DNA of 64,000 nt from Amoebophrya sp. A120 (Eukaryota > Protista > Dinoflagellata): the NCBI GenBank assembly GCA_905178155.1, contig CAJINV010000002.1, forward strand, positions 5,513,709 through 5,577,708, in the 5' to 3' direction. Below, piece after piece: positions 559 to 62,900 of the stretch; the stretch's first letter is position 1; the number at the start of each line of letters is the position of its first letter. The notes beneath the pieces were generated by a model. The model was not told where the DNA came from. It saw only the letters and a program-made list of their open reading frames with translations, and did not search any database. Both the position numbers and the translations under genes were made by a program.

Positions 559-3500
559 ATGTCCTCCACCACTTCCTTTTATGGGGGCACGGTGAACACC
601 CGGGCCAGCAACACGCCCCGCGAGAAGCAGCCCCGACACTACGCCCGGGTTCCGATTGTGAATATGAGCGGCAGTGCCTACTTCATCGCCGTTCCCACCC
701 CGGTCGTGCAGACGAGCACAACTGCCTCGGCCGGAGTGTTGAACAATAACTACGGCGCATTCCATCTCGCTGCAAACTACAACAACGCTGACCCAGAAGG
801 AGGGAGTTTATTTCACCCGACCGGCGGCGCGGCTTCTAACCTACAGCACACGGCACCGGGTGCGGTGCAAAACATCCACAGCCGTTACGAGGACTTTTTC
901 TTCTCAGACAACACGAACGCCGGGTTCACAGCGGCAGGAGCATCATCTTCGAAAGACTACATATCCATCGCAAAAGTATCGTTATCGTACGAGTTGTAGT
1001 AATTTTTGCATGGCACCACACTTTATCAGCATGACGAAAAATTCAATTTGTAAGGCTGAATGAGGTAGGAAGCAGCCAGATATGTCATGCAAGACTGCAG
1101 CTAGTACGAACGAGCTTGACATTTTTGCAAAGGATGTGACATTACGAGAGCGCGCAATAAAGGCGTACGAAGCAACGCCTCTGCGGGCAGCGGCTCCCAC
1201 AGCCAAGGGCCGCCGTCTTTGGCGGACCAGAATCAGCTGCAAAAATCAAAGTCCTGCGCGACGAGCAGCAGCCGCAAGATGAAGCAGAACTCGCGGACGC
1301 GGGAATCTTCGGTCGTGAGCCGCAAGACGTTACTTTCGGAACGGGGCAGCTGTCTCCGGAATCGCGACGACGATCCGTTCGTGCGGCAGTGGGATTTTTC
1401 TGACAACGAGGACTTTTCTGACGAGGACCACTTACTCCAGAATTTCAACTTGTTGAAGAACCTCCACGATTCGCCGGCGTCCAGCGAGAGTACGGATGAG
1501 GAGGAAGTTCTTTCCGATGTGGAGCTGCACGATAAGCATCTACTTCAACACCGGCACAGCGACGGTATGAGCAGTAGCTCCACCAGCACGGAGGAAAGCG
1601 ATCTGGCGCTCGACAGCTGCGGGCCGATTGGGAAAATGCTGTACTCGAAGCACATGTTCATTCAGCACAAGTCTGCTTATCAACTGTAAAAATGTCTGGG
1701 TCTGGAAGAATGGAACTTGTGATGCTAAATCTGAAGCATACAAAAATCTGTGTTGCATGATTACCAAAAGTCGTCCAGTTTTGGCCAAGTCGGGAGGGAG
1801 TTTCTCATGCAGGATAGGCATGAGAGAGAGTGCGCAGAATCTGTCATTTTAGGTCCTGCATTACAGACCTCATGGGTCATGAAAAAGCTGCATGACAAAT
1901 CGCGCATTCTTCCAGACCCAGACATTTTTACATTTGATACTGCTGCCCTGTTGGCGAGTCAGCAGCACAGCCAGCATGGTACTGACCCGGATCATCTTAG
2001 TAAGGACCCTGAAATAAGTGTTGCTCGGGACGGCGAGGACGGTGTTGTTGAAAATGGTATGATTACGGGAGTAGCTGCTGATCATAAAAATCGAAATTCG
2101 TCCTCCACGAGCAAGGAGAAGTGGAACGGAAAAACGACCATCCACATCCCGAAAATTCTGAATTTGGAGCAGAAATCGCTGGACCGGTCCTGGTCCTGGC
2201 TCAAAATCGGCCGGGACAGCAGCAGTGCGGCCACCTCCAAAGAGAAGCCCTCCGCGTCCGCACTGCTGCAGAAGAAGCCTCGCAGCATCAAAATGAGGAC
2301 GATGGGCACGCAAACGAGGCTGCTAAGCACCGGCGGAGCAGCTGAGCGGGCGGATGGAACAACAAACCTTCCGATCGAGCACGATGTTCCCCTAGTAGAC
2401 CAGCGCACACCCGCTGTGCCAGAAGTGGAAGTCGGCGAGGTGGTGCGGCGGTGGAAGCTTTCCGCACTGTCGTCGTCCACCCGAGCCGGACACCTTCTTC
2501 CACAATCGGAAACCTGCAACAATACAAATATTTCTCCTTCGAACAAGGGGAATCCCTCGACGTCTATCAAATGCAAAAATGTCCGGGTCTGGAAGATTCT
2601 GAGACTTGTCATGCTAATCTGGCACGAGTCTGAACTCTGTATTGCGTGGCCGCAAAGAGCCCTTCCTCCCTGTCATGCAAAAACGCAGTTTCTCATGCGG
2701 AATACGCAACTCAGAACCATGAAAAAAACTTGTCATGCTTGGCGGCGCATTACAGTGAGCTCACTATTCCCTCCCTTGCATCACAAGTCTTCCAGACCCA
2801 GACATTTTTGCAGTTGATAGCGTCCTCGCGCTTGCAACTAAACAAGCGGTCCAACAGTGCGTCCTCCAGCGCGACCACGTCGGGCGGGGACGAGCTGCAC
2901 CAAAATAATCATGCCGGTTTCCGGCGCAACCGCGTCCAGCCGTCGACCACAGCGAGCGAGCACGCCTCCGCCGGTCCGCACGAGGCGGGCCACTTGTCCT
3001 CCGCCAGTTCCGCGTCCAGCCGGTCGGGGGTGTATTCCCGCAGCGTCGGGGGCGGGGCCTCCGCGACGGGCGGCACGAAACACTCCAGTCGCAAGAGCAT
3101 CATCCGCAAGAGTTCGCGTCGGAATACCCTGATCAACACGTCCAAATCCACTCCGCGCGCCGTGTTGGCGCTGGGCGGAGCTGCTGGAGGTTCTGCAGCA
3201 CCTGGTGGTCCGCATCTACCCCGCTCGGCCCGTTCCACTGCGTCCAGCGGCGGGGGTCTGGCTAGTTCAACATCGGGGACGAGACAACTACCACCACAAC
3301 CTGGTGATATTCCCCGCGAAGTAGAGTCGGTGCCCAGGCTGGCGCTGCAAAAAATGGTGCAGGACGGCTTGTTCGGTGGAAGCGCAATGATGAACAGTGC
3401 TGGTAGCCAGCTTCCATCTCTAGTATCCGCCGCAAATAAAGATCAAGACGACACGGCACACAATCCGACTGGTGCGCTTGCGACGTTGAGCTTCGGAGAG

Positions 3501-6500
3501 GACAGCAGTAAAATTATGTTGAACTGCAGCACGCCAAAGCCGAACGCAGACCCCTCAAAGCATCTGGAATCTTCTTGTTCCCTCAAAGATCCGGATGCCA
3601 AGAATTCTTCTGGCCAAGAACATGATGAAGGTCAACATCTTCCTGCGACGAAAATCGGCGAGAGAACCACGACCACGACTGTGCACGACGACGGCGACCA
3701 CCTGGCAAAAACTTCCGACGACCTGCTGCTCGTGAGTAACACGTTGAAGAACCAACTGAAGAGCAGCGCCTCAAACAATTGGATCCTGGAGCAGCATGCG
3801 CCGACGGTGAAGCAGTTGAAACAGGAAATTTCCAAGCATTTTCGCATTCCCGTCACGCTCCTCGTCATCATGGAGGTGCGGATTCCCGTCGAAGACCAGG
3901 ATGAAGCTGCTGCTGCTGCGGCGGCGACCCATGGGACCACGACTGAGGACGTAGGTGCCGATGTTGTGCTCGACCGTGAATTAGATTCCTCGCCTGCTCC
4001 TGGTTGTGCAGTTTGTTCGAGTCCCGCGACAAGAATGAGGCCTCTAAAAACCGACAGTCCGGAAGTAGATGCGGACCACGGTTCTGTAGCGAGCAACGAC
4101 GAAGCACTTCTGGAGCACACCACTTCGCGCCCCACAAGTGAGCAGGAAGAAGAGCCGCACGAGAAGATCTTGGACGATGAAGACGTGTTGGAACTTGTTC
4201 CCACGACCTCGGTGCATCTCCCGGCGAATTCTTCTCGTGTCGTCCAATCACAAGCCTATGCATTGCAAAAGTGTCTGGGTCTGGAAGATTCCGAGACTTG
4301 TCATGCGGTTTTTCCAAGCTCCGCCAAGTCTGGAATGCAGGGCCTGGCATCACAGGTTCGGGAGCCCCTTGGTGATGCCTATTCTGCATGAGACATGCCC
4401 TCTCAGAATGGCCAGAAATGGGGACCTTTTGCAAGTCACGCAACACAGATTTTTGTATGATCCGCAACACGCATCACAAGTTCGCATCCTTCCAGACCCA
4501 GACACTTTTGCGGTTGATAAAGCCGGTGCTGCCACAACGACGTCCACACCCAGAACCGCCCACGCCGTGAGCGTATGCTTTGCAAAAGTGTCTGGGTCTG
4601 GAAGAATCCAACTTGTCATGCTAATTTTGGATTCGAAAAAAATCTGTATTGCATGAGCTGCAAAGAGAGTCCAAGTTTTGCTACACGGACAGAGCATTTG
4701 TCATGCGGTATAGGCATCAGCAAGCCCTCACAAAATCTGTGATGCTAGGGCATGCATCACAGACATCAGGAGTCATGCAAAATGTGCATGACAAGCCTGG
4801 CAATCTTCCAGACCCAGACACTTTTACAATCCATAGAGCGCCAGCGCGAACAACACGCACCTCGTAATCCAAAGCAGCCCCCGCGGCGGGCCGCCGGCTT
4901 CGGACCTCCTGTTGCAGCAGATTGGGAATCCAAGCGAATTCTTTGCGGATAAAAATTCATTTCCAGCGACAACCACCGAGAACAGGAGCAGTGGAAGTAG
5001 CTCTGCCGCCAGTTGTGCAGCTGGGTCGTCTTGCGGCGTGAACAGTCGCGAACAACCGGCGGCAGGAGGTCGTGGTTCTGCTGCGCCCGCAGGAAAAGAG
5101 GATCTCGACACTACTACGACATCAGGTACTTGTGCGAAGAAGCAGCGCCCCCAAAACTACTGTGTGACCAAGCAGCCGGATCACGTTTATTACCGGTATC
5201 TGGTGAAGAGGCAGCCTTTCGACGAAGATTTGGATGAGTCAGCCGATGAAGACAAACTGTGCGAAGACCTGAACCGGCTCGGGCTGGCGGCCTGTCGGGA
5301 ATGGGTCTATCAGGAAGAATTTCTTAACTTGAAAGGTAAACAGGTGGGCATCCAGAGTGAAACCAAAAGTGTCGCTGAGCCAACGCGCGTAGAGGTTACA
5401 TCAACCGCGGACCACTCCACAGCAGTTGTAGTTCCTGCTGGGATAGCAAGCGGTTCACCCACCCCTGCTTCTGTTCCAAGCGGCTTTGACTACCCGACCT
5501 TCTTTCGCAAACGGTGCGAGTTGCAACAAACGAACCTCGCGATCGCCCTGGCCGAATACGGACCATGGGACAAGATTTTGGTGAGCGGGCTCACGAATTA
5601 TACAGGTGTAGAACTACAAGAATCATCCCATCATGACGAGAAATTCGACGCTGACGCGCTTCGTGGTCGAGAAGAAAACGGCAATACGCACGATCCAGGA
5701 GGAGCTGTACAGGGAAACGCACTCTTCTCGTCATTAGAGTTATCCGCCTTTATGTCCGCATGCTGGATGACCACCCCGATTGTTGCGGCTAGCCGGATAT
5801 CACATGCAAATAGGTTTGGGTCTGGAGGAAGAACAAGGCAGATTTTTGTCATGTTGTTTTTGCATGACGTGGAACGGAAGGCCTGTCATGTTTGCAAGTC
5901 CTGGGATCACAGGTTTTGGGAATGATGTTTCGCAATGGATAATCCGCACGGATAAAAATCCCTTCTCTATTCGGTTTAACAAGAAGAATTAGTAGGCAAC
6001 TTTTGCTGCATAAATGGCGGACTTTTGCTGTGCATGGGTGACAGAGTTTTCTTGTGCGACTTGAAACGCGGCGCACCCGACGTTTCTTGCATCTCTCACC
6101 TTTCAGACCCAGACGCGTTTCCACTGCATCCAGGATGGCCGCCAGCAGCGAGGATGAGTCTGACATGGATAGCGTGCCGTATGCATTGCAAAAGTATCGT
6201 ACTAGTATAAATTGCATCACAAGTTTTTTCAAGAAGAGAAATGAAATTTGTAATGCTGATTCACCTAAAGAGGGATGTTTGTCATGCATGATCGCAATTA
6301 CTACGAGTACGAGTACGATACTTTTGCACAGGATATGCCGAGTCGTACTACCACGAAAACCAGCCTTTTCCTTGCGCTATCAAATGTAAAAATGTCTGGG
6401 TCTGGAAGATGCCAGGTTTGTCATGCATATTTTGCATGACCCATGAGGTCTGGTATGTAGGACATAGCATGCCAGATTCTCTGTTAGTTCTATCATGCCT

Positions 6501-9500
6501 ATCCTGCATGAGAAACTGCCTCTCGATTATGTCAAAAGTGGACAGCTTTTGGTAATCATGCAACACAGATTTTTTACATGATTCAGATCTAGCATGACAA
6601 GTTGGTTTCTTCCAGACCCAGACATTTTTACATTTGATACGCGCAGGCACAGAACAACAGTGGTGTCGTTTCTCACCAGCAACAAGACCTACCGTCGGTG
6701 GCAACGAAACAGGACGAGGGTCATCTTCATCTTGTTCACGTGGCTAACAGTTGTAGGAACGCTCCTGCAAGTGCGAACCCAACTACACCTGGACACGAGA
6801 AGTCTACTAGTGCAAATTACAAGGAAGGACCAGCGGAGGTTGTGAGAAGTGCAGACCTCCACCAGGCTGGAACATCAAGACGCGGTGACATCGTTGCTCA
6901 GATACACGACCCCGCTGTGGAGCAGACCGCGTTCTCGTCGCAACTGCGAGAGGAAGTGAAATTAAATTCAGACAGCGAGGATATGGAGGTTTTTGATTGG
7001 CGGAACAACAAGCTACTCGCGAAGTTGCGCCAGGAAAACGTGGATCAGGTGGTTGCTTCGTCTTCCAAGGAAAAAGAACAAAGTAGAGAAAGTCTGGAAA
7101 GAAGAAATAAAAATGCTGGCGAAAGAAATGTCGAAATGCACACGAACTCGAAGCACAGTCCAGTGAGCCAGCATCTTCCTGACCAGGACCCGTCTGGTTC
7201 CGCCTCTGCAGCGTCCCGGCGCCGGAGCAGTAGCAGCAGTTGCTCTGCGTCCAAGAAGAGTGCCATGAAAAAAACTAAAGATAGAGAAACAGAAACCTCC
7301 ACTGTGCTGGCTGCGAATCAGGGACGAGAAGCGACTTCTAGTACACTTCTAAAGGGAACAAGTATTGACAACGACCCCAACAGCAAAACGACAACCTCGT
7401 CTATGAAAAAAATAAGTGCGAAAGGACCGTCGACAAGCAAAAAACCCGCGGACCTGACGCGACTGACAGCGAAGAATTTGCGAAATTTGGCGCAACCAGT
7501 GCCTGTGATCAACCAACGACGAGCCGGGCAGCACGGAATTCTGCTGTCACGGGATCTCGACCCGCCGGACAGCTCAAAGAATGCAGGTATGGCCGCACCG
7601 TCCAGTGCGGATCACGTGGTAGACAGCACGTTAATTGGGAAAACTTTGAAGAATCGAAGGAGCGAAGGAACAAACGACGAAGTAGATGTCGAGCTGCAAA
7701 CCAAAGAACAGATGAATAGCAGTGTTGGTACTCCAGGAGGAGTACAAGGCGCGGCCACTTCTTCTGTTCTGAGAGCTACTGGCAGCGCAGTGGATGAAGA
7801 AGCCCGGCAGATAAAACTAGGAACAAGCGCACCAGTCGCCGCCCGTGCATCAGAACAGCCGTTCCCGCTTCTGGTGCCGGTGGTGAAAACCCGCAAAAGC
7901 CGGGGGTCTATCGCCTCCAGCAGTGACGCCAGCCACAAGAAGCACGTGAGCATGTCACTAAACGCGCATTTTCGCAACTGCGATACGAGCTCGGATTCCT
8001 CCAGTCAGCATGCGGTCGAACAAGAACCGTCGAGCCACGCTTCTAAAACTAGGTTCTCACGAGGGGATAATGACAACGCGGAATCTTCGTCCGACGGTTC
8101 GAGTAACGTAAAGAATTATCAGCCGCAACATCTTCACGTGACAGGAGGGACTACCGGTCAACAAATCTTCCCCGGAAGTGGTGGTGGCGGAGAAGCTACC
8201 GCCGCCACCGCGATGTTCTTGCCTACGATATCAGACCAAAATTTGCCGGTGACCACAATGAAAAAGTCGTACATAATGCCGGCTGGTGCAATGACCAGTA
8301 CTACCAGCAACCCCGCGCCGCCGATTATATCCTCGATGAAGGAGCCCTCCGCCAAGTTCCTGATCTCCGACGGTTCCGCGGATGTGCACAGTTCTTTCGG
8401 CGCCGCGCCTTCGACCAAGGTTGTGACGATGCAACTGAATACGCGTTTTCTGCTCCCGGATGAGGATGAGGCGGATGAGTCGCAGTCCATGTACACAACG
8501 CCCGGAGGGCCGAACAACCGCTTTTTCCACGACGACACGACGCCAGCGCGCTTCGACGGCCGGGACGCGGGTAGTGAAGACTTGTTCTCGCAGGAACCCC
8601 CCGACCACAAGGAGCACGCGGGGAACACCCCCTTCCGTTTGCATAACACGAACAATCTGTACGAGGACGAAAGCTTTCCGTTTTTCCCCGAACAACAAAG
8701 GCAGTTCTTGGCCGGACCTGTTGCAACTTCTACGCGAGCAGGGGGAGAAAAAAATCCGGAAGAAGAAGGGCAAGACGATCATGTAACGCCGGGCACTGGA
8801 GGAGCAATCCTTGGTGACAACATAGCGGACTACAAAGGTCTTGCGCGGTCCTTCGAGGACGGCGGCGAAAGGGCACTCCGGAAGGATAAAAACGACGACG
8901 AGGATTATTCGCCCTCTGCGCAGGCATTTTTCCAGGACGAACTGCAGAAGCCGGGGTCCCTCGGCCAGCGCTTTCCGTTCTTCTCCCCGCCGCTGCGACC
9001 GCGCGGGGGCGGGGGGAGCGGCGTAAAACAGCCCCACTTGCCTATTCCTGTGGCCGCGAGCTGCGCGACGAAAGTAGATCTGTTTACAGCGTCGGCGGCC
9101 TCTTCACACGAAGCTGCGCACGCGAGCGGTGGCTCATCTTCTTCTAGTGCCACAGATTCTACTACAACTGCTTCCAACGCGGGGGTCAGCAAGAACCAGC
9201 AACAGGAGACGCCAAACCACATAGAAGTGGCCGGTCAGCCGGCTGGCCCGCCGCGTGCTCCCGGAAGGTTTGAAGACAAAAGCGGTACCGCGGGTAGTGG
9301 CGATTTGAGTAGTTTCCCGTGGAACACCGCAACGGAAAAAGTTTCGAGTACTAGTACACAGGGAGACGTACGACCTGCGGGGGAAGACAACTCCATACAT
9401 CCACAGCAATCCGATCACGCAGATGATCCTGAACAGGCCGGAAAATCTTCTGCTTCAGCATCTTCGCGAGTTGTAAATGATCACACAACGACGACCCAGA

Positions 9501-12484
9501 ACTACAATATTAGCGCCGCGACGTCCATACTAACCACTCCGCACCAGCGCTCTGCTCGTAAGCGTGTAGCAGGGAAAGAAGATCATGCGGATCAGGAAGT
9601 GCTAGCTTATGATACTCAAAAACACCTGGAGCAGACCGCCAATTTGGCCAACAGAACTACTCACGATACAAGACACGAGGCAAACAACGACCTACGATTA
9701 ATGGCAAGCACCGGTTCGTGTTCCCGCCCGCACAGCCGTGACCTGCCGGCTCGCGCGATCCTGACCCGAACCAACGCCAGCGAAGGGAAAACCAGTTTCC
9801 ATTCTCGCAGTGCCTGGAGTACGCCGCGAGAGGTTGCGAGCGACAGGAATAAAACCAGGACGACCACGCCCCGGAGACTTATCCCTAGTAATTCTGCTGC
9901 AACTGCTTCGTCGAGTACTCAACGTAAAAAAGCCTCGTTATCGCGCCGTTCTTCGTCGAAGAGCCTGTCTGCAAAGCTGCAAGAGCAACATTCCTCCGCC
10001 TACTCCGATTGCAGTTCGTCCACGTTTCTCTTGCGCACCGCCGGCCATTACGAAAAGCACCCCGGGTCCAAGCACGGTGCGCAAACGGAAGCTGTAGACG
10101 TGGTGCTGAACACCGCGGGGACGCTATCGTGAGGAAAAATCCCCCTCCCCGTATCGATAAGGAACGCCTCAGAAAATTTGTCATGCTGATTTGTGACCAC
10201 AAATCGCATCTGTGACGCAAGAAAGCAGCGCCACAGTCTCCGCCCCATTATGCAGGCGGTTTGTAATGCTGCTGGTCCTCCGGCATAGACGTTCCCCATG
10301 CTAAGTGCCTAGGCCAAAACCTCTGCGCATCCATGGGCATGATATGGGCCTTCAGTCGTCTACTGCAAGAGAGATGTGGTTCGTGTACTCAAATACAGCA
10401 ACACAAGTTTCGTTTTCGACATGGGGAGGGGGGATTTTTCCTTTTGATAGACGCAGACAGAATGGACCTTCTCGCCCGCCACAAGAACGAGAAATCACGA
10501 TGATTCCGCAGGTGAAAGCAAGAATAAGGCTGAGGGACAAGGACTTGGGCAAGAAAAGGAAGATCGTTTTGACGCAGAAGGGAATGAAGTTGTGGCAGTA
10601 GCTGCAGATCAAGCTGTGACGACGGATAGAAGCAGTGCCGCTAACCCCCTTGTGGCCGCTGCTTCATCTGGTGACAGAGGAACAGCTCCTGCTTCAGGAA
10701 GAGAAAAAGAAACAACTAGAGCCGAACAAGCTTCCACATGCGACCCCTCCAAAGTACATCAAGCAGAAGACTGCGACGAGCCGATTGACAGTACAAAAAC
10801 CGTGACGAAAGCAAGGAACTCATCCAATGCAGAGATGCAAATAGCCGCTGTCGATAAATTTTCTCTCCCGGCGACTTCTTCACGGCATCATCATGCGACG
10901 GAGGCAGCTGTTGAAAAGGAAGAGAATGGGAAAAAACAGACAGAGCCATCGGGCGTCGTGGAGTCAAAAAATGCTGATGAAAGACAAAAGGATACCACGA
11001 CAGCAGGAGAAATAAAACACGACAAGGACGCAAACCAAAATCAACGCGCGGTCCTGTCCCCCGAAAGCCTGCGGCGTCTGGAAGTCCGCTCGGATCATAA
11101 CCTGGACCAGCACAATACCGACGAAAGGAATTTGATTCTGCAACAGTTGCGCAGGCAAAGCCATAACCACGTAACACAAGCTGGTACGAATCAGATGAAT
11201 CTTGTTCGCGGTGGTCAAAATAATCCTGCTACAACGCAGAACCCAGGGCCCCAGACGAGCAGCGGCGGTGGTGGTCAGCAGCTTGTTGAAGACCCGCACC
11301 CGCCATTGCATGGTTTAATGAACGCGAGCACAGGCGGCACAACTTCCAGAAACGCGATGAACAACACCTCGGCGTGCTCGGAGTACTCGGTGGTGACTAC
11401 AACGACCGCGCGGAACAACCGCGATTTTGACTACAACGAGCTGCTTCACCCGGCACTCTCGGTGTTGCAGCGCTTCTCCGCCAGTTACGGGTTGACAAGC
11501 AGCACAACTAGTAGTACAACCGGCTTGATGTTGGCTCAGAATCCATCGGAAGCGGGGGGTCTTGCTGGTGCGGCGGGAGCGGAAGGCGGGGCGGGACTAC
11601 AACAGGATTGTTTATCCAACAACAAGAACTCATCTGGATCTGCTTCCACGATGATGCTGACCAATGTGCAGTATGGTCCACCTCCTTCGCGAAAAATGCA
11701 ACTCCAGGAACACGAGCCGCAGCTTCGGTTCCGCCAGATGCTGAATGCCAAGACGCAAAACAACGAGACCTGCCTGACGTTTGCGGGGAATGAGGAGGTG
11801 CTGCTGAAGTTGCTCACCACGTACCGGGATTACCTGGATGTGGAAAACACGGTGAACGCCATCACGAAGACGAACCCGCTGCTCCCGCACAGCAACGCCT
11901 TCGCCGCCGGGACGCTCGCCTGGTCCTCCGCCCAGCTGTCGCGGACCATCCCGTGGAACGTGCTCATTCAGGCCTGTTACCGCAAGTACCGCCGGGTGGT
12001 CAACGAACTGCTGTCCTTTCCCACCACGAAGCGGCCCTGGAAGTGGATCGTGGAGAAAGAGATGATCGTCCCGGGACTTTTTAACAGCGAAAAAAACAAC
12101 TCCTCGGCAGCGGAAAAAAATGGTCCTACTTCAGGAAATGCTCCTTCGTGCGGTGGGGTGAACAAGGAGGATAAGAATCTTCCCGATCCTTCTACCGCAA
12201 CTGCAGAGGCGGGGGCAGAAAAGACAACTGCAGCAGCTCCTCTGACGAAAGACGGATGTTGTGCGAACGGTCCTGCTCCTGCCATGTTTCCTGAACAAGA
12301 CACAGCTGAGGAGAAGAAAAATGAACATAGCAATCCAGCACCAGAGAACGAAACGAACAAAAACGACACTACAGATGAGGAAGATGAAAATGAACAATTT
12401 ACGCCCTTTTTCCTTTGTCGCGTGAATGGTTGGGAGCCGGAATTAGCCCGAATGAAAGAGTATCTGGAAAAAATGGACGACTGA
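559..12484 (+). CDS. Large low-complexity hypothetical protein, ~3195 aa, 10 exons
   Basis: ATG at 559. Removing 9 elements plus one 5-bp repeat each (2338 nt) leaves 9588 nt of continuous frame linking ORFs 559, 1219, 1750, 2646, 4138, 4912, 6054, 6698 and 10592. Ser/Thr/Ala-rich, no domain recognised. Confidence 0.8.
962..1136. mobile_element. Introner, short family, degenerate
   Basis: tatccatcgcaaaa...ttttgcaaaggatg; flanks ctaca/tgaca; removing 180 nt keeps the frame. Confidence 0.7.
1678..1939. mobile_element. Introner family A
   Basis: TIR tatcaa.tgtaaaaatgtctgggtctggaaga; perfect direct repeat ctgct; 267 nt, in frame. Confidence 0.95.
2565..2819. mobile_element. Introner family A
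   Basis: Family A TIR; flanks acgtc/gcgtc; removing 260 nt matches the frame change between the ORFs. Confidence 0.93.
4257..4519. mobile_element. Introner family A
   Basis: Family A TIR; perfect aagcc; 268 nt. Confidence 0.95.
4574..4835. mobile_element. Introner family A (reverse-complement near-copy of the 22200 and 42962 elements)
   Basis: Family A TIR; perfect gagcg; 267 nt. Confidence 0.95.
5798..6130. mobile_element. Introner family A, diverged
   Basis: Degenerate TIR; ccgga/cagga; 338 nt matches the frame. Confidence 0.85.
6180..6335. mobile_element. Introner, short family (tgcaaaagtatcgtact TIR)
   Basis: Perfect tgccg; 161 nt. Confidence 0.9.
6378..6639. mobile_element. Introner family A
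   Basis: Perfect ~32-bp TIR; tgcgc/cgcgc; 267 nt. Confidence 0.95.
10125..10449. mobile_element. Introner family B (aggaaaaatccccctcccc TIR)
   Basis: Perfect gacgc; 330 nt, in frame. Confidence 0.93.
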
Positions 12485-13033
12485 AAATGTAGTTTTGCTG
12501 AGCAACTCCCTGACGAAATGAAGGTTGGAAAGAATGTGAATCATGAAAGCGACGCCTGAGAGGACGCGCACTTGCTCTTGCAGTTGTCTTTAGTAAGTAG
12601 CAGTGCAGAATTTCTGTGCGTTCTGTTCCAAATTCGTGGAAGTCAAAGTTGTGTAGCGACCTGTTGACCTGCAGGACGGCGGTGTCGCGTTCCTGGCGGA
12701 GGTGCACACGCTTCTGAATTTTCTTCATCGGACGTTATTGTTACCACCTTTTGATTTGTCAACGACGTGCAGTCGGTCCATGTACATGAGCCGCAAATTA
12801 TCATGATTATGATTCTGCTTTGGACTACACTACCTCCAACTGCTCTGTGCGCTGCAGTTGTTAAATTTTGTGTGCCGTGTAAAAACACACTCGTTCTGTC
12901 TTCCTGTCTAGAGCGAATTGTGCTTCTGCCTACTTCACGTTCGGAGGGTCACGGAGCGTCGCCCAGTTTTCTAGTAGATGTAGGATTTTCTTTTTCATCA
13001 AAGAAAACGAAAAGAAAATCATTTTACAGAACA

Positions 13034-45800: not shown

Positions 45801-46074
45801 GAGGACCTCTGTGGTGCACTACCTTCTTCTTCTAGTCTACGTAGTGCTTTCAGTACTCGAGGAGAACGAGGACTTACATTCAAAAATTTTTACGAATTAG
45901 TACTCACAACGATAGATAAAGAATACCCGTCGCCTGCCTCTCACTGGCTGGGAGTTTGAGTGTGACCTTGCCCAGATCTCTCTCCGTAGTGAATTCCTGC
46001 TCCACACGCGCTGGCGGGTGCAGCTCCGCGTGCGAGGGGTGGTGTTGTTGCTGATGCGCTACTTCCTGCGCCAT
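42900..46074 (-). CDS. Bestrophin-family anion channel, paralog 1 (5' end uncertain)
   Basis: LAFTLVFRINLAYMRWWDSR, IRSTPFPKPF and ELEHPFGSD motifs. Four elements are removed in frame. Stop at 42900. The first exon from ATG 46074 through a possible GT-AG intron is tentative. Confidence 0.85.
42962..43223. mobile_element. Introner family A
   Basis: Perfect agagt; 267 nt; nearly identical to 22200-22461. Confidence 0.95.
43969..44261. mobile_element. Introner family A, diverged
   Basis: tgggg/aaggg; 298 nt matches the frame. Confidence 0.8.
44647..44930. mobile_element. Introner family A, diverged
   Basis: gtccg/gtgcg; 289 nt. Confidence 0.85.
44994..45275. mobile_element. Introner family C, diverged
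   Basis: caaag/ccatg; 287 nt; restores KLINVHFMAMAFDQY. Confidence 0.8.
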
Positions 46075-53398: not shown

Positions 53399-53974
53399 CT
53401 TCTTCTTCCGTAGAAGCAGGTAGTAAATGCGCCTGATATTGATAAGTAAAAGCACCACCTCCTCCAAATATAATGCGGAAAAGAACCAATGGCAACTGAA
53501 AACGCAACGCGCTAATCGCTGTGCTGATGTGAGAGAAAAACGACACTCCTAAACGTCGCACTTCTTGCCCTCTCAGACACCCTCGGTAGTAGTCCCCGTG
53601 TTACGACCACTCCGAGTGGTAATCATAATTATCCCCCGTCAAAAAGAAAACTGAACCTGGTGCTAGCCTCTACTAAAACAAGTAGAGTAGTAATCGCGAC
53701 ACTTGTTCTTCAGATGAGGATGTCAGCTGCACTCAGGATTTTTTCGGCTCGACCACACATCGACTACAGCCGGTAGGCGAGTCGGTCTTTCGTCTTCAAC
53801 TCAGTAGTTACTTATCACCCTCACCCAGGGAACAATGCCTCTAAACACTGACGATTGTAAGGATGTACCAGTCCGTCGAGATAAGTATTCCAATTCCTCA
53901 TCAAAATCATTCAGTAAAAGCAATCCAATGCACTTGCAAGCAGTACTGCTAGTGCTGAATAGACCAAACGCGTT

Positions 53975-56900
53975 TTAACAAGCAACCACAACATCTACCG
54001 AGTAGACCCCGCAAATGTCCACTTCCGGAAAGAGGTGTAGTGCTGTGTTTTTCCATGGATCGTTTGATGCAGAAGTACTTTTGCAAGCATGATGTTGCCC
54101 TCTACTACCAACTCCGCTACTTACTACTCCTGATGCTGTCGTGGCCAAAACGCTTTGCAGTACTTGAAGCAAATCCTGGTGAAACCCGAGGTTCCCGTGA
54201 TTGATGACAGGGCCGGCTGCCGGGTGGTGTAACGGGGACGGAAAATCGGAAGCGCAGCTAGCCGCTATTTTCATTCCGTTACCGTTTGTTTTCGAAGATA
54301 TTACCGACTTCTTTCTGCTCGTGTCTTCATCATCGTCTCGAGCTGCTGCTGGTACAGTTTCTGATGTCCCGGAAAAGACAGAAGACCCAACGTGCATACC
54401 CGAAGCCGCTACCGTGCAGCCGAAACACGCAACCGGGTCGGGGCCGTGGACATCAAGAGCGCCGTTCTTGGGGTGTGTAAATGAAAGTAGAGATGAAGAA
54501 GCAGTTCCTACAACTTTATCAGCTGTTTGATCATCTTCTACGCGTTTAGATGAATTTCTCCTGGCACTTTTCAGACTACTTCTCTTATCACAACCAAGAC
54601 CTCCGCCTCCGTTTATCAAAACTTTTTCCAGGTTCCGCACCGTCCCCAGCCGGAGCTTTTCAAAGTTGAATCCCGCGGCGAAATGCAACAGCGCCTGCAC
54701 GATCTGCCGCTGGCACTTCTTCTGGTTCGCGTGCCTCCCGGAGATTTGGTCGCTTGGCTGATACTGTGCATAATTCGGGAAACCATGGTCTTCTACTTCG
54801 AGTACATCACGGTTACAATCTTCGCACCCGTCCCCCAGAACTGTAGTTATTGTGTTCCGCCCGCCCTCGCTGTTTTTCTTGATCCTGGTCACAACTTCTG
54901 TCGTTCTCGCTATCCTGTCCGCTAAGAAGTCAAAAACGGGCAACCACTTGTCCGCAATCAGCAGGGCGTCTTTCATTTGGGTCAAGAGAATACTAAGAGC
55001 GTGGAAATACACTGCGGTGGAGGAAAGGGTCCAAGAATGTTGGTGCAGGTTCTTGTTGTAGTACTGGGAAGGATTTTTTCGTGCTACTGACGAAGTAGAA
55101 CCCAGTTTTGTAGCGCCCGCCTCTTCTGCCTGTCCTTTAGTATCTGCTGGTTGTCCTTGTTCCACTACTATCATATGGTACTTGCGACTGTAGTTCAGGC
55201 ACTCGATTACCCACTGCTTGTGCTTGTTCGAGAATTGGCACCGGGCGAGACTGTTCATCAGACTAGAGATGTGTATGGTGTCGATACTGAATCAAACTGA
55301 AAATAAGACGTGTCCCGCCCGCGGAGCAAAGAGGGGTTCGTGAAGCGAAGTTCCAAATGTTAGCAACACAAATTTCCAATGCACATTTGCAAAAAATCTG
55401 TGCTGAAGGCTTGCGCTCAGTACTTGTTGGGCGTTGCGTGTCACGCGAAGTCTTTACTGCACGGCAACAATTTGGAAATAGAAAGACATCCGCAGACCTC
55501 TTATGCAAGCCAATGTACGAACTTCGCAAGAGAAATATTTGCCAGGCCTGCTGCAACCGGGGCAAGACAGCTTATTTTCCAATTCGTATAGTGCGCCGAT
55601 TGTTCGCGTTCGACAGATTCGCAAACCCGGCGGACCATTTCGTTTGAAGTAGGGCAGTCCGCTTTCTCAGTGTTGTGAGTTGTGCCCTCGTCGCTTCTGG
55701 TGCCCCCGCAGTACTATCATCTTCATCACCAGGGCAAACAGTCCTTTCTGGGGAAGAAAGATCCCCTTCAGGAGACGGTGAGGCACGGGGTGTAGATGTG
55801 AAAAATTTTGACGTCGTTAATGTTGACGTGCCAGCACTTGTATCAGATGCACTGAGGTCCGGGTTAAAACCCAACTTGCAAATCGCGTTGAACGCGAGCA
55901 CGAAGTTCAGGCCCTGGAACGGCTGCTCATGCGCCGTGGTGATGCACTTCGCCACGAAATCTGCCAGATTGACGGAGGAAAAAGCACCGGCCGCTCTGCT
56001 GCTGGTGGTGGGGGCCGAAGTCGAAAACGATGACATCACACTACCATTTGCCATAGTGGCGGTGTAAGAAGACGTCGCACCTGGTCGTTCAGCTTCTCGG
56101 TCCACAGATTTCACCGCTCTCTTCTCTGCTTCAGCAACAGAAACATTCTCGTTGAAGAGCGGAAACACTATCAAGTGCACAGGTGTCTGGGTCTGCAAGC
56201 TTGCAAGATTTGACATGCATTTGCATGACCTATGATGTCTGTAATGTACGCCCTAGCATCACAGGATTTGTGATGGCTTTTTAATGCCAATACCGCATGA
56301 GACTCGCCCCTTCGCGTAGCAAAGATTGGACTCCTCTTGCTGTTCTTTTGTAGAATCGTCCAAAGGCAGCATCACAAGTTGCATTTTTCGTCTTCCAGAC
56401 CCAGCCATATTTGCAATGCATAAACACCTTGGCATAGGCATTTAGCACCAACGCGAGTTCGGAACTGGAAATCCGCAGGCTTCTGCTGAAAACGTCGTTT
56501 TTGCACTCGTCCTATGCATTGCAAATGATGTATCGTTTGGTGGTCTGGAAGAATGCAAATTTGTGATGCTCCTCGTCATCCTTGTGAAAGGACGACAAAG
56601 ACGTCGGTCTCGCATGAGCACCGAAAGCCGCCTTTCACTTTTTGTCCTCCCATCAACTGCTTCAGCAAAATGCTAGGTGAGTTTGTTCTGGAAATAATCG
56701 CAGGATGCACATTTTTACGGATCATGGCAAAGCAACCTTCGTGTTCCAGACCCGCCAACAGATATACTTCTGCAGTTCATACGTCGAATGTCTTTACGAT
56801 CTCTTGTCTGAGCAATGCAGCATAAGAACTGGGTGATGACGAATTATGACAATCCACAATTCCAGCCGCCTTCTGATTCTGCCCCAAACCCAATCCAGCA

Positions 56901-59900
56901 CCAGTGACCATGAAAAGAGAAGCCGTTTCCGTGTAGAAACAGGCTAGCGCGTTGAGGTAGGCGGAGAGCTCGAAGGGTCGCATGCCAGTCGTGGGCGACG
57001 AAGTACTACCAGCGCGTGGTAGATTACTACTTCCAACCACACGACCTGCAGTAGAGGTGGAAGTAGTTGTAACTGCCCTACCAGCTGAGTCTTGCGGTGT
57101 CCCTCGCGGACCGCCAGAAGGACTGCTTCCGAAGATTATATTTTTTCTACAAGTTCGGTAGCTCGCGAGCATGAGCAGCAACTTTTGAATCGCCGGCTCC
57201 AGCAGACTGTGATCCGCCGCGGCCGTGTTGCAGAACTGCAAGTTCTCTGGACCTCGATCGTGATCCCCCGGACCCGAGCCAGCTCTGCCGCCGGTCAGAT
57301 ACCTTGCAAACGCCGTGGAGAAATTGGACACGTCCTGCGGATTCAGCTTGTGGATAGCGGTAGAAGTACCACTTTTAGCTGTCATGCTACAACTAGATGT
57401 GGAAGCGGTCGCCGCTGCGAATTCCAAAAACCGCTCGGCGGCCTTTGCGAAGAAAAACTGAGTTGTAGTTTGACTGCTGGCAGCCGAAGAGCTGCAAAGA
57501 AACTGGTCGTTCAACATCTTCATCTGGTCCCCACGATTATACACCACCCCCACCGCCGCGAAGGCGCCGACCGCGTTGCAAAGGTTCTGGGGTGTGAACT
57601 CCGGCAGTTTCTGCAACAGGCACGGGACGAAATGGCGGGAAAACAAAGCTTGCAACTCCTCCAAATCACAAAAGTTTCGATTGTTCGCCCGCTTCGGCAA
57701 GCTGAAGTTGTGATTTCTACTTGGCTGGCGGTGCTGGGGGACGCCTGTTGCTTTCACGTTGGCGGAAAGTGGGAAAGAGGTGGCGCTCGCACTCGTCGAA
57801 CTCAACGGGCTGAGATGCATTGCAAACACGTCGGGGTCTCCTTGTTTTGCTGGTAGAGCTACAGTTTTTTTTACAGCGCATGGCAATGTCTGTAAATGCG
57901 CTGCTCGAACGTATTAGGCCTGTGGTCTTTGTTGTCCTGCCAAAACGAAGCTACAACACGCATCCTCACAGAACCCACCCAAACTTTATCGTTGTTGGCT
58001 GCCAACTGCAGTCTGTTTGCCATGCAGAGCTTACTTGGCAGCACAAGCTTTGACGAGGACCCCGCGTGTAGATTTTTTGCTTTCGATAGCTAGTACTACT
58101 ATGCATTTCCTTGCGGCGACGCGGTGGCGGAAGAAGTTCTGACAGTGCTGCGGAGCCGTCGGTCGCAGTGGAAAGCGCGCGCTCATCCTCATCTGCCGTG
58201 GCGGGGCAGGATCCTTCGTCAATCGAAACGGAGCGGGACACTTGGCTGACGCTTGGCTTTCGCAATTCTCCAGGTCGGCCCGCGCTGGGCGATTGGAAGT
58301 AGAAGGTTGCCCCGTTTTGTTCTGGTTCGTGGTGCGGTTCCACTGAGGGTCCGCCCGCGAGGCGGAAACTGTCACCATCAAGTTGAGCAGCTGGTGGTAC
58401 ATGCAGCTCTGCAGTCATTGATGATACGTCCCGGGATATCCTGAGTAAAAACGTACCCACACCAGAGTTGTCATGCAAATCTGCATGCCAAAAAAGTTTG
58501 TCATGCGGAGCGCAATGAGAGGCATTTTCTAGTCGTGTTTTGGAATTTGTGATGCTATAATCCGCATGATGTACTAGATCTGTGACGCTGCTGAACTACC
58601 TAAACAGGATTACACTACGAGGAGAAACTTGTCATGCCAAATGACAAAAGCTGGCTGATTTGTCTAGCAGATTTCCCATCTTGACTCTGGTGTGGGGACG
58701 TTTTTACTCAGGATACGGGACAGCGCGTCCTCGTGGCAGAAGTCCTTGGTATGCATCGCAAAAGTAGCTCGTACTGATTCGAAAAAAAGGCAAAAATCTG
58801 TATATAGCTGTGTGCCATCTGTCCAAGAAGCGTCCGAAACTCTTTTTCTCATTCTGGGAAAATTGTCATGCAATCACAACTACTACGCATCTGGTGTTGT
58901 AGATATAGCGATCTCATAATCATACTTTTGCAATGCATAATGGCAGTTGAGCGACAACAGCGAGCTAACGCCGTTGAAGGCCTTCGCGAACGCGTGGAGC
59001 AATAGCGAAAGCGATTGCGGACTGCACGACTGCAAGTTCGCTTCATTTTGGCACCATGTCATCGCTTCCTTGAAATAGCCCAGATCCACAAACTGCAGCT
59101 TCTATCCTAGGCAAAATTTTCACAACAACTGCCCCGCTTCCCATCTTCACTTTGTCCTCTGTTTGCAAGATGCAAAATGGTGCCCGCATCTTTTATACAA
59201 CAGGTAGAGGTAGTTCGCATGATTCGTACTACAAATGCAGGCTGTACAAATTCAATAAATTTTTACTTTAGTATAGTAGCTGCAAGGGTGAAGATCATTC
59301 GAAATTTTGCGCATTGAATAGCTTGACCTGCGCATTCAACAAAGTCGAGACGGCAATATGGTCCACTTTTAGGAGGCCTGGAGCTCTACTGCTGTGCCAG
59401 CACAGATGTGACGAGCTGCCACCCACTCCGTGCAGTATACCACCCCCTGGAGCGGTCGCAGAGCGCCGCGTCGCGCCGTCCTCTATGCCTGCAGAAGCTG
59501 CCGGCGCTGCAGTTCGACCAGCAACGATTTATCGCACGAAAAACAAAGTATGTCTCCTTCACTGTGAGGATAATTTTGACTTTTAAGGACCTGGATCAAG
59601 CCATCACGACAGGGAAAGAACAAATCCGCCGTGTTTGGTTCCCGCAAAAGCGGGATGAAAACACACTCAGAAATGCAAATAGCCGCCAACAGTACTTGCA
59701 AACATTCCTAGCAAGTAGCCAGAACAAACGCCTGCTCTTTAGTGTTGCAGCATCCACGACGAGAACAGCAGCTGGCGCACGCCAAGATGACAACTACACT
59801 TTTTTCCTGCGATAAATGTCCTCTCGGCGGCGGCGCTGCAAACATCTTCGGCGGGGGAGGAAACTTACACGGCTTATTCGTACAACTCGTAGTTGTGCTG

Positions 59901-62900
59901 TCACTCTGTAGCTTTTTGGAGGCCATATTAGCACCGCCGTGTGAAGATGACGACGATGATGATATTGGCACAAGGGGAGACTGTTCTGAAGCCGTACCAC
60001 CACACAAATGTACCGTCCCCTTTTCCCGAGGAGGAGGTCCCCGCGGCGGTGTGTTCCCGCTCGCGACCATGGTCGAGCTTCCAACGTCCCGAGGAGTGGC
60101 TGTACCACTACTAGCTGTCAGCCAAGTACAAAGGGTTTTGTAGTTTATCGAGTACAAATAACTTGTTCTTCAGATCGGGAAAATGAGTGCAGTTGTAGAA
60201 AATTTGTTTTTATTGCAATATTCCAGCATGCTGTGATGTTCTTGTGCGGCACGACAGCAGCAGGGCAAAATTCCCTACGCTCGCTGCGCATTCGATTCCG
60301 GGCCCCCGTCGACTCAAAGGACAGGCCGCGGCTCGCTGCATGGTAAATGAAAGCGCCCACAGGCACAGCAGGAGCTGCGATGCATGCAATGATACAGATC
60401 TCCTGAACTACGAAAGCATCAAAAATTGCCTGCGTCTTCACCGCTGTTCCGGACCTAGACACAAGAATTGCGAAAATGCGTAATATTGTCTTCTGCCATG
60501 CTTCTACTATTCTCGTTGTACTCTTTCAGCTGTTCCTTCGCTCGCCACACCAGGGCGCGCAGGACCTCCAGGTCGTCCTTCCTGTCCAGGCGGGCGTACG
60601 CATTTATGATCATGGACAGTGCCTGCACGTCAATGGCGTGGTTTACTTCTTTCAAAGAGGCACCATTTGCAGCTGACAAAAATCGTTCACCGTGTTCTAC
60701 TGCTATACTGTTCTCCGGCACGGCCGGCGCGCCAGGAGAGCGTTCTAAGTCTTCAACACCCGGTATATTAACGTTGCTTTCGTGGTTGGACACTGGCAAT
60801 AAAGCCGCACCTGTTGCAGCAGCGGGACCGGAACGAACAACAACGCCACCACCCGACCTGACCTCTGCGGGCGTGGCTGGAGTAGAAGTGGCACAAGTAC
60901 TTCCGGACCGCACCAACTGCAAAATGTAGGGCCGAAACAAGTCAAACAACTGCGTCTCCTTGGCGGCGTCATCCTTCTCTTTGTTCTGCTTCCTGGTTGC
61001 ATCGGCCCTGCCACCGGCGCCATGGTGCAGGTGGGGGATCCCCCGGGACGAAGAAGGATGGACAGAATAACTTCCTGCGCCTTGTTTCCCCGCATCTTTA
61101 GAAGCGATCGTCTTTTCCAGTGGTCCTGCTCCACCTCGCAGATCCCCCCGGGAAGGAAGCTCGCTGTTCGCCTCCTCTGCTCCTTGCTCCGAAACACTAA
61201 CACTGGCAGCTGCACTACTACTTCTCCCAGTTCTGCTCTCTTCCCCGGGAGGTACCATTTGCGCTGCTCGCACGTTGTTCACCTTGGCTACCGCCTGCAG
61301 CAGCCGCGCGATCGCCGGCGCATCGAGGCGGGGGGCGAGCTGTGCGAGACGCGATCCACCACGGCGAGGTTCTTGGGTGCTTGATGCGGCTGGTGGTTCC
61401 GTGCTGCAGGCTCCGGTATTGGCCGCGGAAGGTCGCGGTGGTTGTGTGAAGCTAGTGGTAAAATCTTCAGATGCTGCGCTTGTGGTCGTTATTTCACGTT
61501 GAAAGTAGCGAGCATTCGCGTCGGCGGCATCAGTGTCGAGCAAGAAGTATGGGTTGCAAATATGTAGTCCCCTAGAAGATGATCTTGAAGGATGCAGCTG
61601 ATTTGTGTTGCTGACAGGGTGGAATGGTCCGCCACACAGCATGAACAACAAATGCCGAGCTTTGGAAACGACGACGTTCTTGCGTCTTCATGGGTATTCG
61701 TAGTTCGAATTTCCACCCAGCAACATGAAGGCAGAAATAAACTACCTCGGTAAACTTATACCCCAGGCACATACAGATCAGGGCGCCGTCGCGCAACTTG
61801 TTAGTACAATTAGAACTAGTCGCGGATTTTTACAAAGAATCTAGGACCACACTGCGTGACGTGTCGATTATGCATAGCAAGCTGTTCAAGACAAAGTCCC
61901 GGTCCGCTGTGGCCAGCGCCATCTGCAGGTCCGTGCTGTTGGCGTCTCGTATGGAATGTAGAAAACAGAAACACGTTCGCCCCCCTCCCATTCCAAAATT
62001 GTATTCGCATAGAAATACAGCACCTGGAAGGGCCACTCAAGAACTTCTACGGATGTACTCTTAGTACTATCCGCAAGGCAAGTTCTTGCGTCGCGATCAC
62101 GAAGAACTGAGTGCATGACTTCGACCCACCTGTCGTAGCTGCTCCTGCCTTAGCGTTGCAGTGCCGGTCCACGTGGAGCTGCACTTCCACCACTAGCACT
62201 ACTTCAGTCCGCATGAATTATACAAATTCGAGAACGGCCGGGCAAGAACGCTCTGTTGACTTTTTACATTGTATACCTCGGTGGTCAAGCACGGCCGCTA
62301 TCGTCTGATCCGTCGTACAGGTGGACCTGTTGCGACCAACGGCTGCAGGCTCAACAAGTGCTCCTTCCGCACCGTCTTCGCCTCGGCCCGTCCATGTCGC
62401 GCTGCTAGAAGCTGCAACCTCTGGCCGCCGCGAAGAGAAAACATTCGCACGTAGCGCCAGGGCGAGGCTCTTCGGAGAGACCGTGCGACTTCTGCGTTGT
62501 TCCTCCGGGTTGTAGTTGTATCTCTTACTTTCGGTGGTGTCGCGCGGAGACGTGGCAGGAAGAACGTCATCTCCCTCCGCTCCTGACCGCGCCAGACGGG
62601 GGGGAAAATTAGACTGCTCGTTTGGTTGCTCACAACACCCGGGCCGACCCTGCGTTTTTGTCGCGCCGCTACTTGTAGGACCCGTACCCACCAAAGCGTC
62701 TGAGATGGCCTCGAACAGCTCCTGGACACTGTCGGTGGGAGGCGCAACTGAGGATTCCTCCGTGGCAGCTTTTACGTTATTTTCACCGTCGAGGACAAAA
62801 CTCCGACCAGGACCAGGAGCACGCTCCTCGTCATGCTCAGCTCTGCCGCTTTTACCACCGGTTCCGCTCCTTCCCCCACCAGCCGTGTTGAGGCAGTCCA

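What the first reader, a model, noticed from the sequence alone, without database searches (positions are those of the whole stretch)
2560..62280. Mismatches between the two 5-bp direct repeats are mostly synonymous
Seen: in 10 of the 15 elements with one mismatch, either copy encodes the same amino acid. These are CGG/AGG (5798), CTT/CTC (6378), GTG/GTC (20062), CAA/CAG (22200), GCT/GCC (24006), GTG/GTC (27581), AAT/AAC (36452), CGC/CGG (44647), CCG/CCC (50634) and GTC/GTG (59103). The exceptions are 2565, 35049, 55290, 56513 and 61950. Roughly a quarter of random substitutions would be synonymous. Inference: the supposedly discarded copy is not drifting freely. Either the junction varies so both copies reach the mRNA, or that copy is constrained by the excision mechanism. 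The mismatches also mark the exact cut position.
Basis: partly seen in the sequence, partly recalled or inferred. Interest (0 to 1): 0.8.

Follow-up and report, generated by a model that had tools for sequence, protein, structure and literature searches.

The report
Transposon footprints show selection, fixed cut
The silent mismatches between the two 5-base repeats around these already described transposon-like introns (likely of the plankton parasite Amoebophrya) are real, but likely reflect ordinary protein-level selection on the one copy that stays in the message; they also place the cut at one offset, 1 base before and 4 bases after the element, in every assembled transcript that locates it.

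Summary
Observation confirmed; main inference not supported. The elements match the published TAT...ATA introner elements of Amoebophrya A120. Ten of 15 single mismatches are synonymous. But 25% is the wrong null: one base of each pair is exonic and under selection, which predicts about 40-47%. All 41 window elements give 16 of 38; 179 elements of a related assembly give 18 of 37. The pooled non-synonymous/synonymous rate ratio is 0.43 (CI 0.27-0.69). This fits one free copy (0.5-0.65), and rejects no selection (1) and both copies coding (0.2 or less). Spliced contigs show one joint per element. All 13 element joints listed remove element + 5 and fit one rule: the mRNA takes repeat positions 1-4 from the upstream copy and position 5 from the downstream copy. 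Elements with 3-4 mismatches are still cut there. Discarded bases show no GT/AG preference; the element's own first T is invariant at the 5' end (0 vs 11 of 263). This scan noted the fixed offset before on other DNA of this genome (unreviewed); the reference paper calls it variable or unknown. Leftovers: a weak residual synonymous excess among singles, and an unexplained phase-0 excess.

The parts
2560..2824 (+). Element 2565-2819 with repeats ACGTC/GCGTC; mismatch at position 1, non-synonymous (ACG/GCG)
   Evidence: no RNA laid here
5793..6135 (+). Element 5798-6130, CCGGA/CAGGA; position 2, synonymous (CGG/AGG)
   Evidence: no RNA laid here
6373..6644 (+). Element 6378-6639, TGCGC/CGCGC; position 1, synonymous (CTT/CTC)
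   Evidence: no RNA laid here
20057..20331 (+). Element 20062-20326, ACGTG/ACGTC; position 5, synonymous; contig keeps the downstream base
   Evidence: X1 piece starts at 20327
22195..22466 (+). Element 22200-22461, CAAGA/CAGGA; position 3, synonymous; contig keeps the upstream base
   Evidence: X4 piece ends at 22197
24001..24233 (+). Element 24006-24228, TACCA/CACCA; position 1, synonymous; upstream base kept
   Evidence: X1 and X4 pieces end at 24001
27576..27797 (+). Element 27581-27792, GGTGA/GGTCA; position 4, synonymous; removal of element + 5 inferred from record lengths, base not shown
35044..35287 (-). Element 35049-35282; mRNA sense CGAGT/CAAGT; position 2, non-synonymous (GAG/AAG); upstream base kept
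   Evidence: X1 and X4 pieces end at 35042
36447..36665 (-). Element 36452-36660; ATGGA/ACGGA; position 2, synonymous; upstream base kept
   Evidence: X1 and X4 pieces end at 36446
44642..44935 (-). Element 44647-44930; CGCAC/CGGAC; position 3, synonymous; upstream base kept
   Evidence: (joint 44641>44931, X4)
50629..50893 (-). Element 50634-50888; CGTTC/CCTTC; position 2, synonymous; upstream base kept
   Evidence: X1 and X3 pieces start at 50889
55285..55593 (-). Element 55290-55588; CACTA/CAGTA; position 3, non-synonymous (ACT/AGT); upstream base kept in 4 of 4 runs
   Evidence: (55283>55588)
56508..56786 (-). Element 56513-56781; CGACG/GGACG; position 1, non-synonymous (TTC/TTG); upstream base kept in 4 of 4 runs
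   Evidence: (56507>56782)
59098..59325 (-). Element 59103-59320; CAAGC/GAAGC; position 1, synonymous; upstream base kept in 4 of 4 runs
   Evidence: (59096>59320)
61945..62280 (-). Element 61950-62275; CGAGG/CGAGA; position 5; frame ambiguous, counted as non-synonymous (GAC/GGC)
   Evidence: joint not among those listed
43964..44266 (-).
   Evidence: joint 43964>44263, both=0, X4 only
59525..59819 (-). Four-mismatch element 59530-59814 (ACATT/AATCG); pins the cut after position 4 in 4 of 4 runs; 3 of 4 mismatches non-synonymous
   Evidence: joint 59525>59816, both=0
60141..60487 (-). Three-mismatch element 60146-60482 (AATAT/AACTA); cut 4 nt after the 3' inverted end in 3 of 4 runs; its other end was set from the joint
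   Evidence: joint 60141>60484, both=0
58745..58944 (-). Three-mismatch element 58750-58939 (GCCAT/CCAAG); cut after position 3 or 4; all 3 mismatches non-synonymous
   Evidence: joint 58745>58941
44989..45280 (-). Two-mismatch element 44994-45275 (CATGG/CTTTG); cut after position 4 or 5; both non-synonymous
   Evidence: joint 44988>45276 (X4)
57809..58093 (-). Two-mismatch element 57814-58088 (CTAGC/TCAGC); positions 1-2 upstream kept
   Evidence: joint 57808>58089
28011..28218 (+). Three-mismatch element 28016-28213 (AAGAT/GCGAA); cut after position 2, 3 or 4; all 3 non-synonymous
   Evidence: pieces start at 28216 (X1, X4)
24270..24558 (+). Two-mismatch element 24275-24553 (ACGCG/TTGCG)
   Evidence: removal of element + 5 inferred from record lengths
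957..1141 (+). Two-mismatch element 962-1136 (CTACA/TGACA)
61543..61848 (-). Element starting at 61548 whose other end is unresolved (near 61840-61843); left out of all counts
1673..63770 (.). 17 elements with perfect 5-bp repeats: 1678, 4257, 4574, 6180, 10125, 19496, 24634, 24954 (+ genes); 35679, 42962, 50253, 52130, 52615, 56169, 58437, 63268, 63566 (- genes)

Best explanation
Each element is likely a small non-autonomous DNA transposon whose insertion duplicated 5 bases of coding sequence, and it is absent from assembled transcripts with a cut 1 base before its first inverted end and 4 bases after its last, so that one base of each repeat pair is exonic and the other intronic; the excess of silent mismatches likely arises because the exonic base can only change silently while the intronic base drifts freely. 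The removed piece reads N-TAT...ATA-NNNN. The machine likely counts from the element itself (U at +2, probably A at -7, ends held together by the inverted repeats) and does not read the repeat bases; a relaxed spliceosome is my preferred, untested, candidate. Shown: geometry, fixed offset in contigs, counts and rates. Inferred: transposon origin, free drift, ruler mechanism, spliceosome.
For: All 13 element joints among the 15 listed (7 more not shown) skip element + 5 nt and allow a cut after position 4; 3 pin it exactly and 2 bracket it as 3-4 and 4-5. Piece ends agree at 6 more mismatched elements. The contigs lack two CT..AC (GT-AG on the minus strand) introns and end in poly(T), so they behave as spliced RNA; DNA-like X5 keeps the elements. 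Rate ratio: window 0.51 (0.26-0.99), related assembly 0.42 (0.21-0.81), pooled 0.43 (0.27-0.69), 34 of 75 synonymous. Four other filter settings on the related loci give 41-52% synonymous. Non-degenerate sites 4.9%, free element-end positions 4.5%, four-fold sites 8.6%. Non-synonymous changes are no more conservative than random (p = 0.29), and synonymous ones are balanced in direction, 13 vs 14. Discarded bases sit at background: G at +1 in 83 of 263, GT..AG in 5 of 263. The first T is unchanged at the 5' end in 263 of 263 but changed at the 3' end in 11 of 263 (p = 0.0009). Mismatch number rises as the inverted repeats decay (rho -0.24, n = 374).
Against: Singles alone are more synonymous than the one-copy model expects: window 10 of 15 (P 0.025-0.084); pooled 24 of 42, ratio 0.28, p = 0.074 against 0.5 and 0.009 against 0.65; pooled with up to 2 mismatches, p = 0.021 against 0.65. 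None of 41 non-synonymous mismatches would make a stop, 2.45 expected; one appears in the relaxed set. The RNA evidence is contigs from 2 samples of 1 study, which drop rare junctions, and RNA status is the tool's guess. Position 4 rests on few elements. Frames in the related loci are predicted, not RNA-checked. The A at -7 is not significant after correction for 15 positions (p = 0.03 raw) and has 3 exceptions. The phase-0 excess is not explained by this model.
Confidence: 0.8

Rival explanations
1. The junction slides within the repeat often enough that both copies reach the mRNA and both are under coding selection.
For: 10 of 15 singles synonymous fits this model (expected 0.69-0.81); 0 of 41 stop-making mismatches vs 2.45 expected; the reference paper describes splice sites as variable relative to the hairpin (PMC7789003).
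Against: With all mismatches counted the model fails: P(share <= 0.42) is 0.006 or less in the window and P(<= 0.49) is 0.025 or less in the related loci; ratio 0.2 rejected at p = 0.001. One joint per element in every run that covers it, among 15 of 22 joints listed, and no other letter at a repeat position. Elements with 3-4 mostly non-synonymous mismatches persist.
Confidence: 0.05
2. The junction is fixed, but the discarded bases are partly constrained (by rare slippage or a weak mechanistic preference), so the true ratio is near 0.3.
For: Pooled singles 0.28 (0.15-0.53); pooled up to 2 mismatches 0.35 (0.21-0.59). If omega is near 0.3 the null is 0.65 and these depart from it.
Against: The singles include the set that prompted the finding; the related loci alone give 0.42 (0.21-0.81). 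Conditioning on one mismatch itself raises the expected share by 2-4 points. No base preference at the discarded positions; their rate equals that of free element-end positions.
Confidence: 0.13
3. Removal is a recombination-like step that needs the two repeats to match, at RNA level or in DNA as for ciliate eliminated sequences.
For: 17 of 41 window elements and 282 of 359 well-scored related elements have perfect repeats; exactly one repeat length is lost.
Against: Elements with 3 or 4 of 5 mismatches are cut at the same offset; a need for identity would not favour synonymous changes; DNA-like X5 retains the elements; mismatches accumulate with element decay.
Confidence: 0.02

Closest known systems
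Introner elements / non-canonical introns of Amoebophrya sp. A120 (Farhat et al. 2021, PMC7789003; abstract, sections 10, 11, 12, 16, passages and supplement text read, figures not seen)
   Same: Inverted repeats starting TAT, then 7 variable bases, then a run of A; 3-5 nt direct repeats at the borders; about 240 nt; non-GT-AG; removed from RNA.
   Different: The paper calls splice sites variable relative to the hairpin and the border unknown; here every informative junction fits one offset. The words synonymous and mismatch occur 0 times in its main text and supplement text. Figures S19-S23 could not be seen and may show offsets.
Introner-like elements of Polarella glacialis and Symbiodinium (Roy et al., bioRxiv 10.1101/2020.10.14.339549, passages read) and introners generally (Gozashti et al. 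2022 PMC9860276 and 2025 PMC12130899, passages read)
   Same: Inverted-repeat transposons with a target duplication that is split between exon and intron at a family-specific offset; mismatches in the intronic copy are read as later mutation.
   Different: Those recruit GT/GC/GA or AG from the target, and their phase bias is explained by that recruitment. Here no base preference is seen in the target, yet 49% of introns are phase 0.
Nonconventional introns of Euglena (PMC12501133, passages read)
   Same: No GT-AG; paired motifs at fixed distances from the ends; direct repeats blur junctions, and non-slidable introns were needed to find the code.
   Different: Signature N3CDG.../CHGN5-6|R differs from N-TAT...ATA-N4; tested genetically there, not here; unrelated lineage.
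Non-canonical introns of Fritillaria borealis (PMC13326754, abstract only)
   Same: Most introns escape GT/AG and are handled by an altered spliceosome, the precedent for the mechanism preferred here.
   Different: U1 is kept and U2AF is duplicated there; U1 was not detected in Amoebophrya A25/A120 (PMC7789003).

Membership tests
Amoebophrya A120 introner elements | Terminal inverted repeats of 8-20 nt: TAT, 7 variable bases, 3 or more A | tested here: met
   End profile from window elements and 263 oriented elements
Amoebophrya A120 introner elements | Direct repeats of 3-5 nt at the exon/intron borders | tested here: met
   5 nt; repeat-blind calling gives 282 of 359 perfect in related loci
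Amoebophrya A120 introner elements | Repeated families, about 240 nt on average | tested here: met
   Copies up to 95% alike in the window; 156-337 nt
Amoebophrya A120 introner elements | Removed from RNA without GT-AG | tested here: met
   13 joints in likely RNA contigs; GT..AG in 5 of 263 under the 4+1 cut
Amoebophrya A120 introner elements | Host is Amoebophrya A120 | tested here: inconclusive
   Inferred from the match to the published motif and from earlier scan notes; no genome was held and no taxonomic marker was tested
Non-autonomous TIR DNA transposon (MITE) | Terminal inverted repeats, fixed-length target duplication, no coding capacity | tested here: met
   168 of 179 elements have a stop in their observed frame
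Non-autonomous TIR DNA transposon (MITE) | A cognate transposase that moves it; empty site in a relative | not testable with these tools
   No genome held; related records not held for extension
Canonical U2 spliceosomal intron | GT at +1/+2 and AG at -2/-1 | tested here: not met
   G at +1 in 83 of 263, AG at the end in 28 of 263; only T at +2 is invariant
Canonical U2 spliceosomal intron | Lariat through a branch-point A | not testable with these tools
   No raw reads of this organism were available; A at -7 differs in 3 of 263
Ciliate-type internally eliminated sequence | Excised from DNA | tested here: not met
   DNA-like run X5 runs through or into the elements with 0 other letters; contigs lacking them also lack GT-AG introns and carry poly(T) ends

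The most novel reading that the evidence does not exclude
A ruler-type splicing machine counts from the hairpin and slips inside the repeat in a minority of transcripts, so the discarded copy is weakly held to the protein code (ratio near 0.3, no stop-making mismatches), and the 49% phase-0 excess arises with no target-sequence signal at all, which would make these introns a natural test of why introns prefer to sit between codons.
Probability: 0.12. Interest if true: 0.68.

Novelty: already known. Interest (0 to 1): 0.35.

Why it matters
The synonymous bias itself is what ordinary selection predicts, so it needs no new biology. Its use is as a tool. The mismatches resolve junctions that the reference paper left unknown and give a one-line code (N-TAT...ATA-NNNN; signal in the element, none in the repeat) for introns that make up over 60% of this parasite's introns and are removed although U1 snRNA was not found (PMC7789003). 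That tells an experimenter which bases to mutate and where to look for a branch point, and lets gene models be fixed. Each repeat pair is also a paired clock: one selected and one free copy of the same bases with one birth date. The unexplained phase-0 excess could test the accepted account that phase bias comes from recruiting splice-site bases out of coding sequence.

Tried and rejected
Records behind the related loci were not held for extension. The element-end pattern found nothing in viral contigs or prokaryote genomes. The first lay was swamped by repeat matches of the DNA-like run, so its joints table was unusable and only piece ends were read, by the leftmost convention seen. Sites 2565, 5798 and 6378 were outside both lays. 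Rejected: the 25% null; recruitment of GT or AG from the repeats; a need for repeat identity; DNA-level excision. For the phase-0 excess, rejected or unsupported: single-base target preference (predicts 0.34-0.35), dinucleotide preference (best of 256 tests p = 0.002), neighbour concordance (53 of 127 vs 47.4), and earlier stop codons by phase. Pfam gave only sub-threshold hits for 3 of 11 exon-level queries, so frames rest on open length and codon model, not on homology. One element folds only moderately better than shuffles (z = -2.5). Dropped rows: element 61548 (end unresolved); in related loci 463 calls became 431 unique, 350 with score 40 or more and at most 2 mismatches, and 179 with a confident frame.
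Full report
What is there. The window holds 42 inserts of 156-337 nt with inverted ends of the form TAT-N7-AAA and 5-bp flanking repeats. Removing each insert plus 5 nt, and three other introns read or inferred from RNA contigs, joins long frames of 231-3204 codons. The end motif, repeat length and size match the introner elements described for Amoebophrya sp. A120 (PMC7789003, sections 10-12 and 16). The host name is inferred from this match and from earlier scan notes; no genome was held.

The observation. The 15 single-mismatch elements and the 10 synonymous calls are correct. With 61548 dropped because its end is unresolved, the window gives 16 of 38.

Where the cut falls. Ten runs were listed. 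X1-X4 lack two ordinary minus-strand GT-AG introns and end in poly(T), so they behave as spliced RNA; they are 2 samples of 1 study. Of 22 joints in 43200-62800, 15 were listed and 13 are at elements. All 13 skip element + 5 nt. Three allow only one cut, after repeat position 4 (43969 in X4; 59530 in 4 runs; 60146 in 3 runs). Two bracket it (3-4 at 58750; 4-5 at 44994) and the other 8 allow it. Piece ends agree at 20062, 22200, 24006, 28016, 35049 and 36452. So the mRNA takes positions 1-4 from the upstream copy and position 5 from the downstream copy, and the removed piece is N-TAT...ATA-NNNN. At the 10 of 15 reader sites where contigs show the base, 9 keep the upstream base (positions 1-3) and 1 the downstream base (position 5). 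No listed joint and no listed other letter shows the second copy. Contigs drop rare variants, so low-level slippage is not excluded. DNA-like run X5 keeps the elements.

The right null. With a fixed cut, one base of each pair is exonic and one intronic. Synonymous mismatches arise in either copy, non-synonymous ones mostly in the intronic copy. The ratio of non-synonymous to synonymous rates is then (1 + omega)/2, or 0.5-0.65, against 1 for no selection and omega for two coding copies (my derivation). Simulation on the actual sites gives 40-47% synonymous among singles; 10 of 15 then has P = 0.025-0.084, and 16 of 38 is central.

Independent data. A pattern scan gave 139 loci (558 kb) of another assembly with the same element family. 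I called elements without looking at the repeats; this caller found 36 of 41 window elements exactly. Frames were called with the repeats masked. Unfiltered, 33 of 42 window frames agreed with the long ORFs; under the filter used, 27 of 28 did, the other being 61950 (read). Of 431 unique calls, 179 passed: 147 perfect, 27 with one and 5 with two mismatches; 18 of 37 mismatches are synonymous. The ratio is 0.42 (0.21-0.81) there, 0.51 (0.26-0.99) in the window and 0.43 (0.27-0.69) pooled; 1 is rejected (p = 0.0006), 0.2 is rejected (p = 0.001), 0.5 fits (p = 0.55) and 0.65 fits weakly (p = 0.09). As an internal clock, non-degenerate repeat sites mismatch at 4.9%, the least constrained element-end positions (+4 and -5) at 4.5%, and four-fold sites at 8.6%. 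This clock is rough: the end caller penalises changes at TAT, those two positions were chosen after seeing the data, and some changes may predate insertion.

Results against this reading. Pooled singles give 24 of 42, ratio 0.28 (0.15-0.53), p = 0.074 against 0.5 and 0.009 against 0.65. Singles and multiples differ in the window (p = 0.02). No stop-making mismatch occurs among 41, with 2.45 expected. These leave room for a partial constraint, which I put at about 13%.

Where the signal lies. In 263 oriented elements the discarded bases are at background: G at +1 in 83, AG at the end in 28, GT..AG in 5. Both ends of an element carry the same motif, so a difference between them in mRNA orientation points to splicing. 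The first T is unchanged at the 5' end in all 263 but changed at the 3' end in 11 (p = 0.0009; 0.013 after 15 tests). The third base is changed in 12 at the 5' end and 3 at the 3' end (A at -7; p = 0.03, not significant after correction). U at +2 is a spliceosomal hallmark (recalled), so I prefer a relaxed spliceosome that counts from the paired ends. That step is inferred and untested; the reference paper reports most spliceosome parts present and U1 not detected.

Against what is known. The elements are published. Farhat et al. describe splice sites as variable relative to the hairpin and the border as unknown, and report inverted repeats 1-5 nt from the annotated sites; identical repeats would blur any annotation in this way (inference). 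I could not see its figures S19-S23. Six literature searches and passage searches in five papers showed no test of repeat mismatches by codon effect and no fixed offset for Amoebophrya; the library lacks most subscription journals. This scan's earlier notes report the same 1-and-4 offset on other pieces of this genome (unreviewed). I had derived it before reading them (notes); the A at -7 I tested after reading one.

A leftover. Under the 4+1 cut the phases are 108:48:64 for phase 0:1:2 (p = 2e-6), alike in window and related loci. In Polarella, phase bias follows from bases recruited out of the target. Here none is recruited, target composition predicts 0.34-0.35 phase 0, and three other explanations failed. 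It is unexplained.

Verdict. The claim that the discarded copy is constrained is not supported. The claim that mismatches mark the cut is right. The system is known; the fixed offset is a useful refinement that I did not find in print. Interest 0.35.

Noticed in passing
window elements and loci L001-L139: Intron phase under the 4+1 cut is 108:48:64 (phase 0:1:2) although no target base is recruited; target composition, neighbour concordance and stop-codon position do not explain it.
   Followed up: partly
window 26327-27167: An 839-nt stretch missing from RNA contigs (inferred from record lengths) is not GT-AG at that length, is flanked by a short AGTA repeat, can be read with T at +2 and A at -7, and holds a 100-nt hairpin at 26642-26849. 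It may be an old element with a nested insert, or two introns.
   Followed up: partly
window 20062-20146: Raw RNA run X8, which covers no exon of 17000-36990, has 216 reads on this one element end, with other flanks on both sides: the element family seems present at another site or in another strain or species.
   Followed up: no
window 61548-61843: Degenerate element at which the reading frame must switch; its right end and repeats could not be fixed.
   Followed up: partly
window 58716-58745 and 24229-24274: Exons of about 30-41 nt between neighbouring elements are kept in RNA contigs, so adjacent elements with similar ends are not usually cut out as one piece.
   Followed up: no
window 47578, 47587, 47753: RNA contigs differ from the window at three places in a GC-rich gene (C>A, T>C, C>T): alleles, paralogues or editing.
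   Followed up: no
window 28600-30600: AT-rich stretch (GC 27-39%) between convergent gene blocks, with a 109-nt inverted repeat at 29282-29390 / 29871-29979.
   Followed up: no
window 42903-46101 and 48377-51646 (minus), 19342-20583 (plus): Two neighbouring genes give sub-threshold Bestrophin_2 hits and one gives a sub-threshold Smr hit.
   Followed up: no
repeat position 1, pooled: Position 1 has more mismatches (24 of 220) than positions 2-5 (11-15 each); it is often a third codon position because of the phase-0 excess.
   Followed up: no
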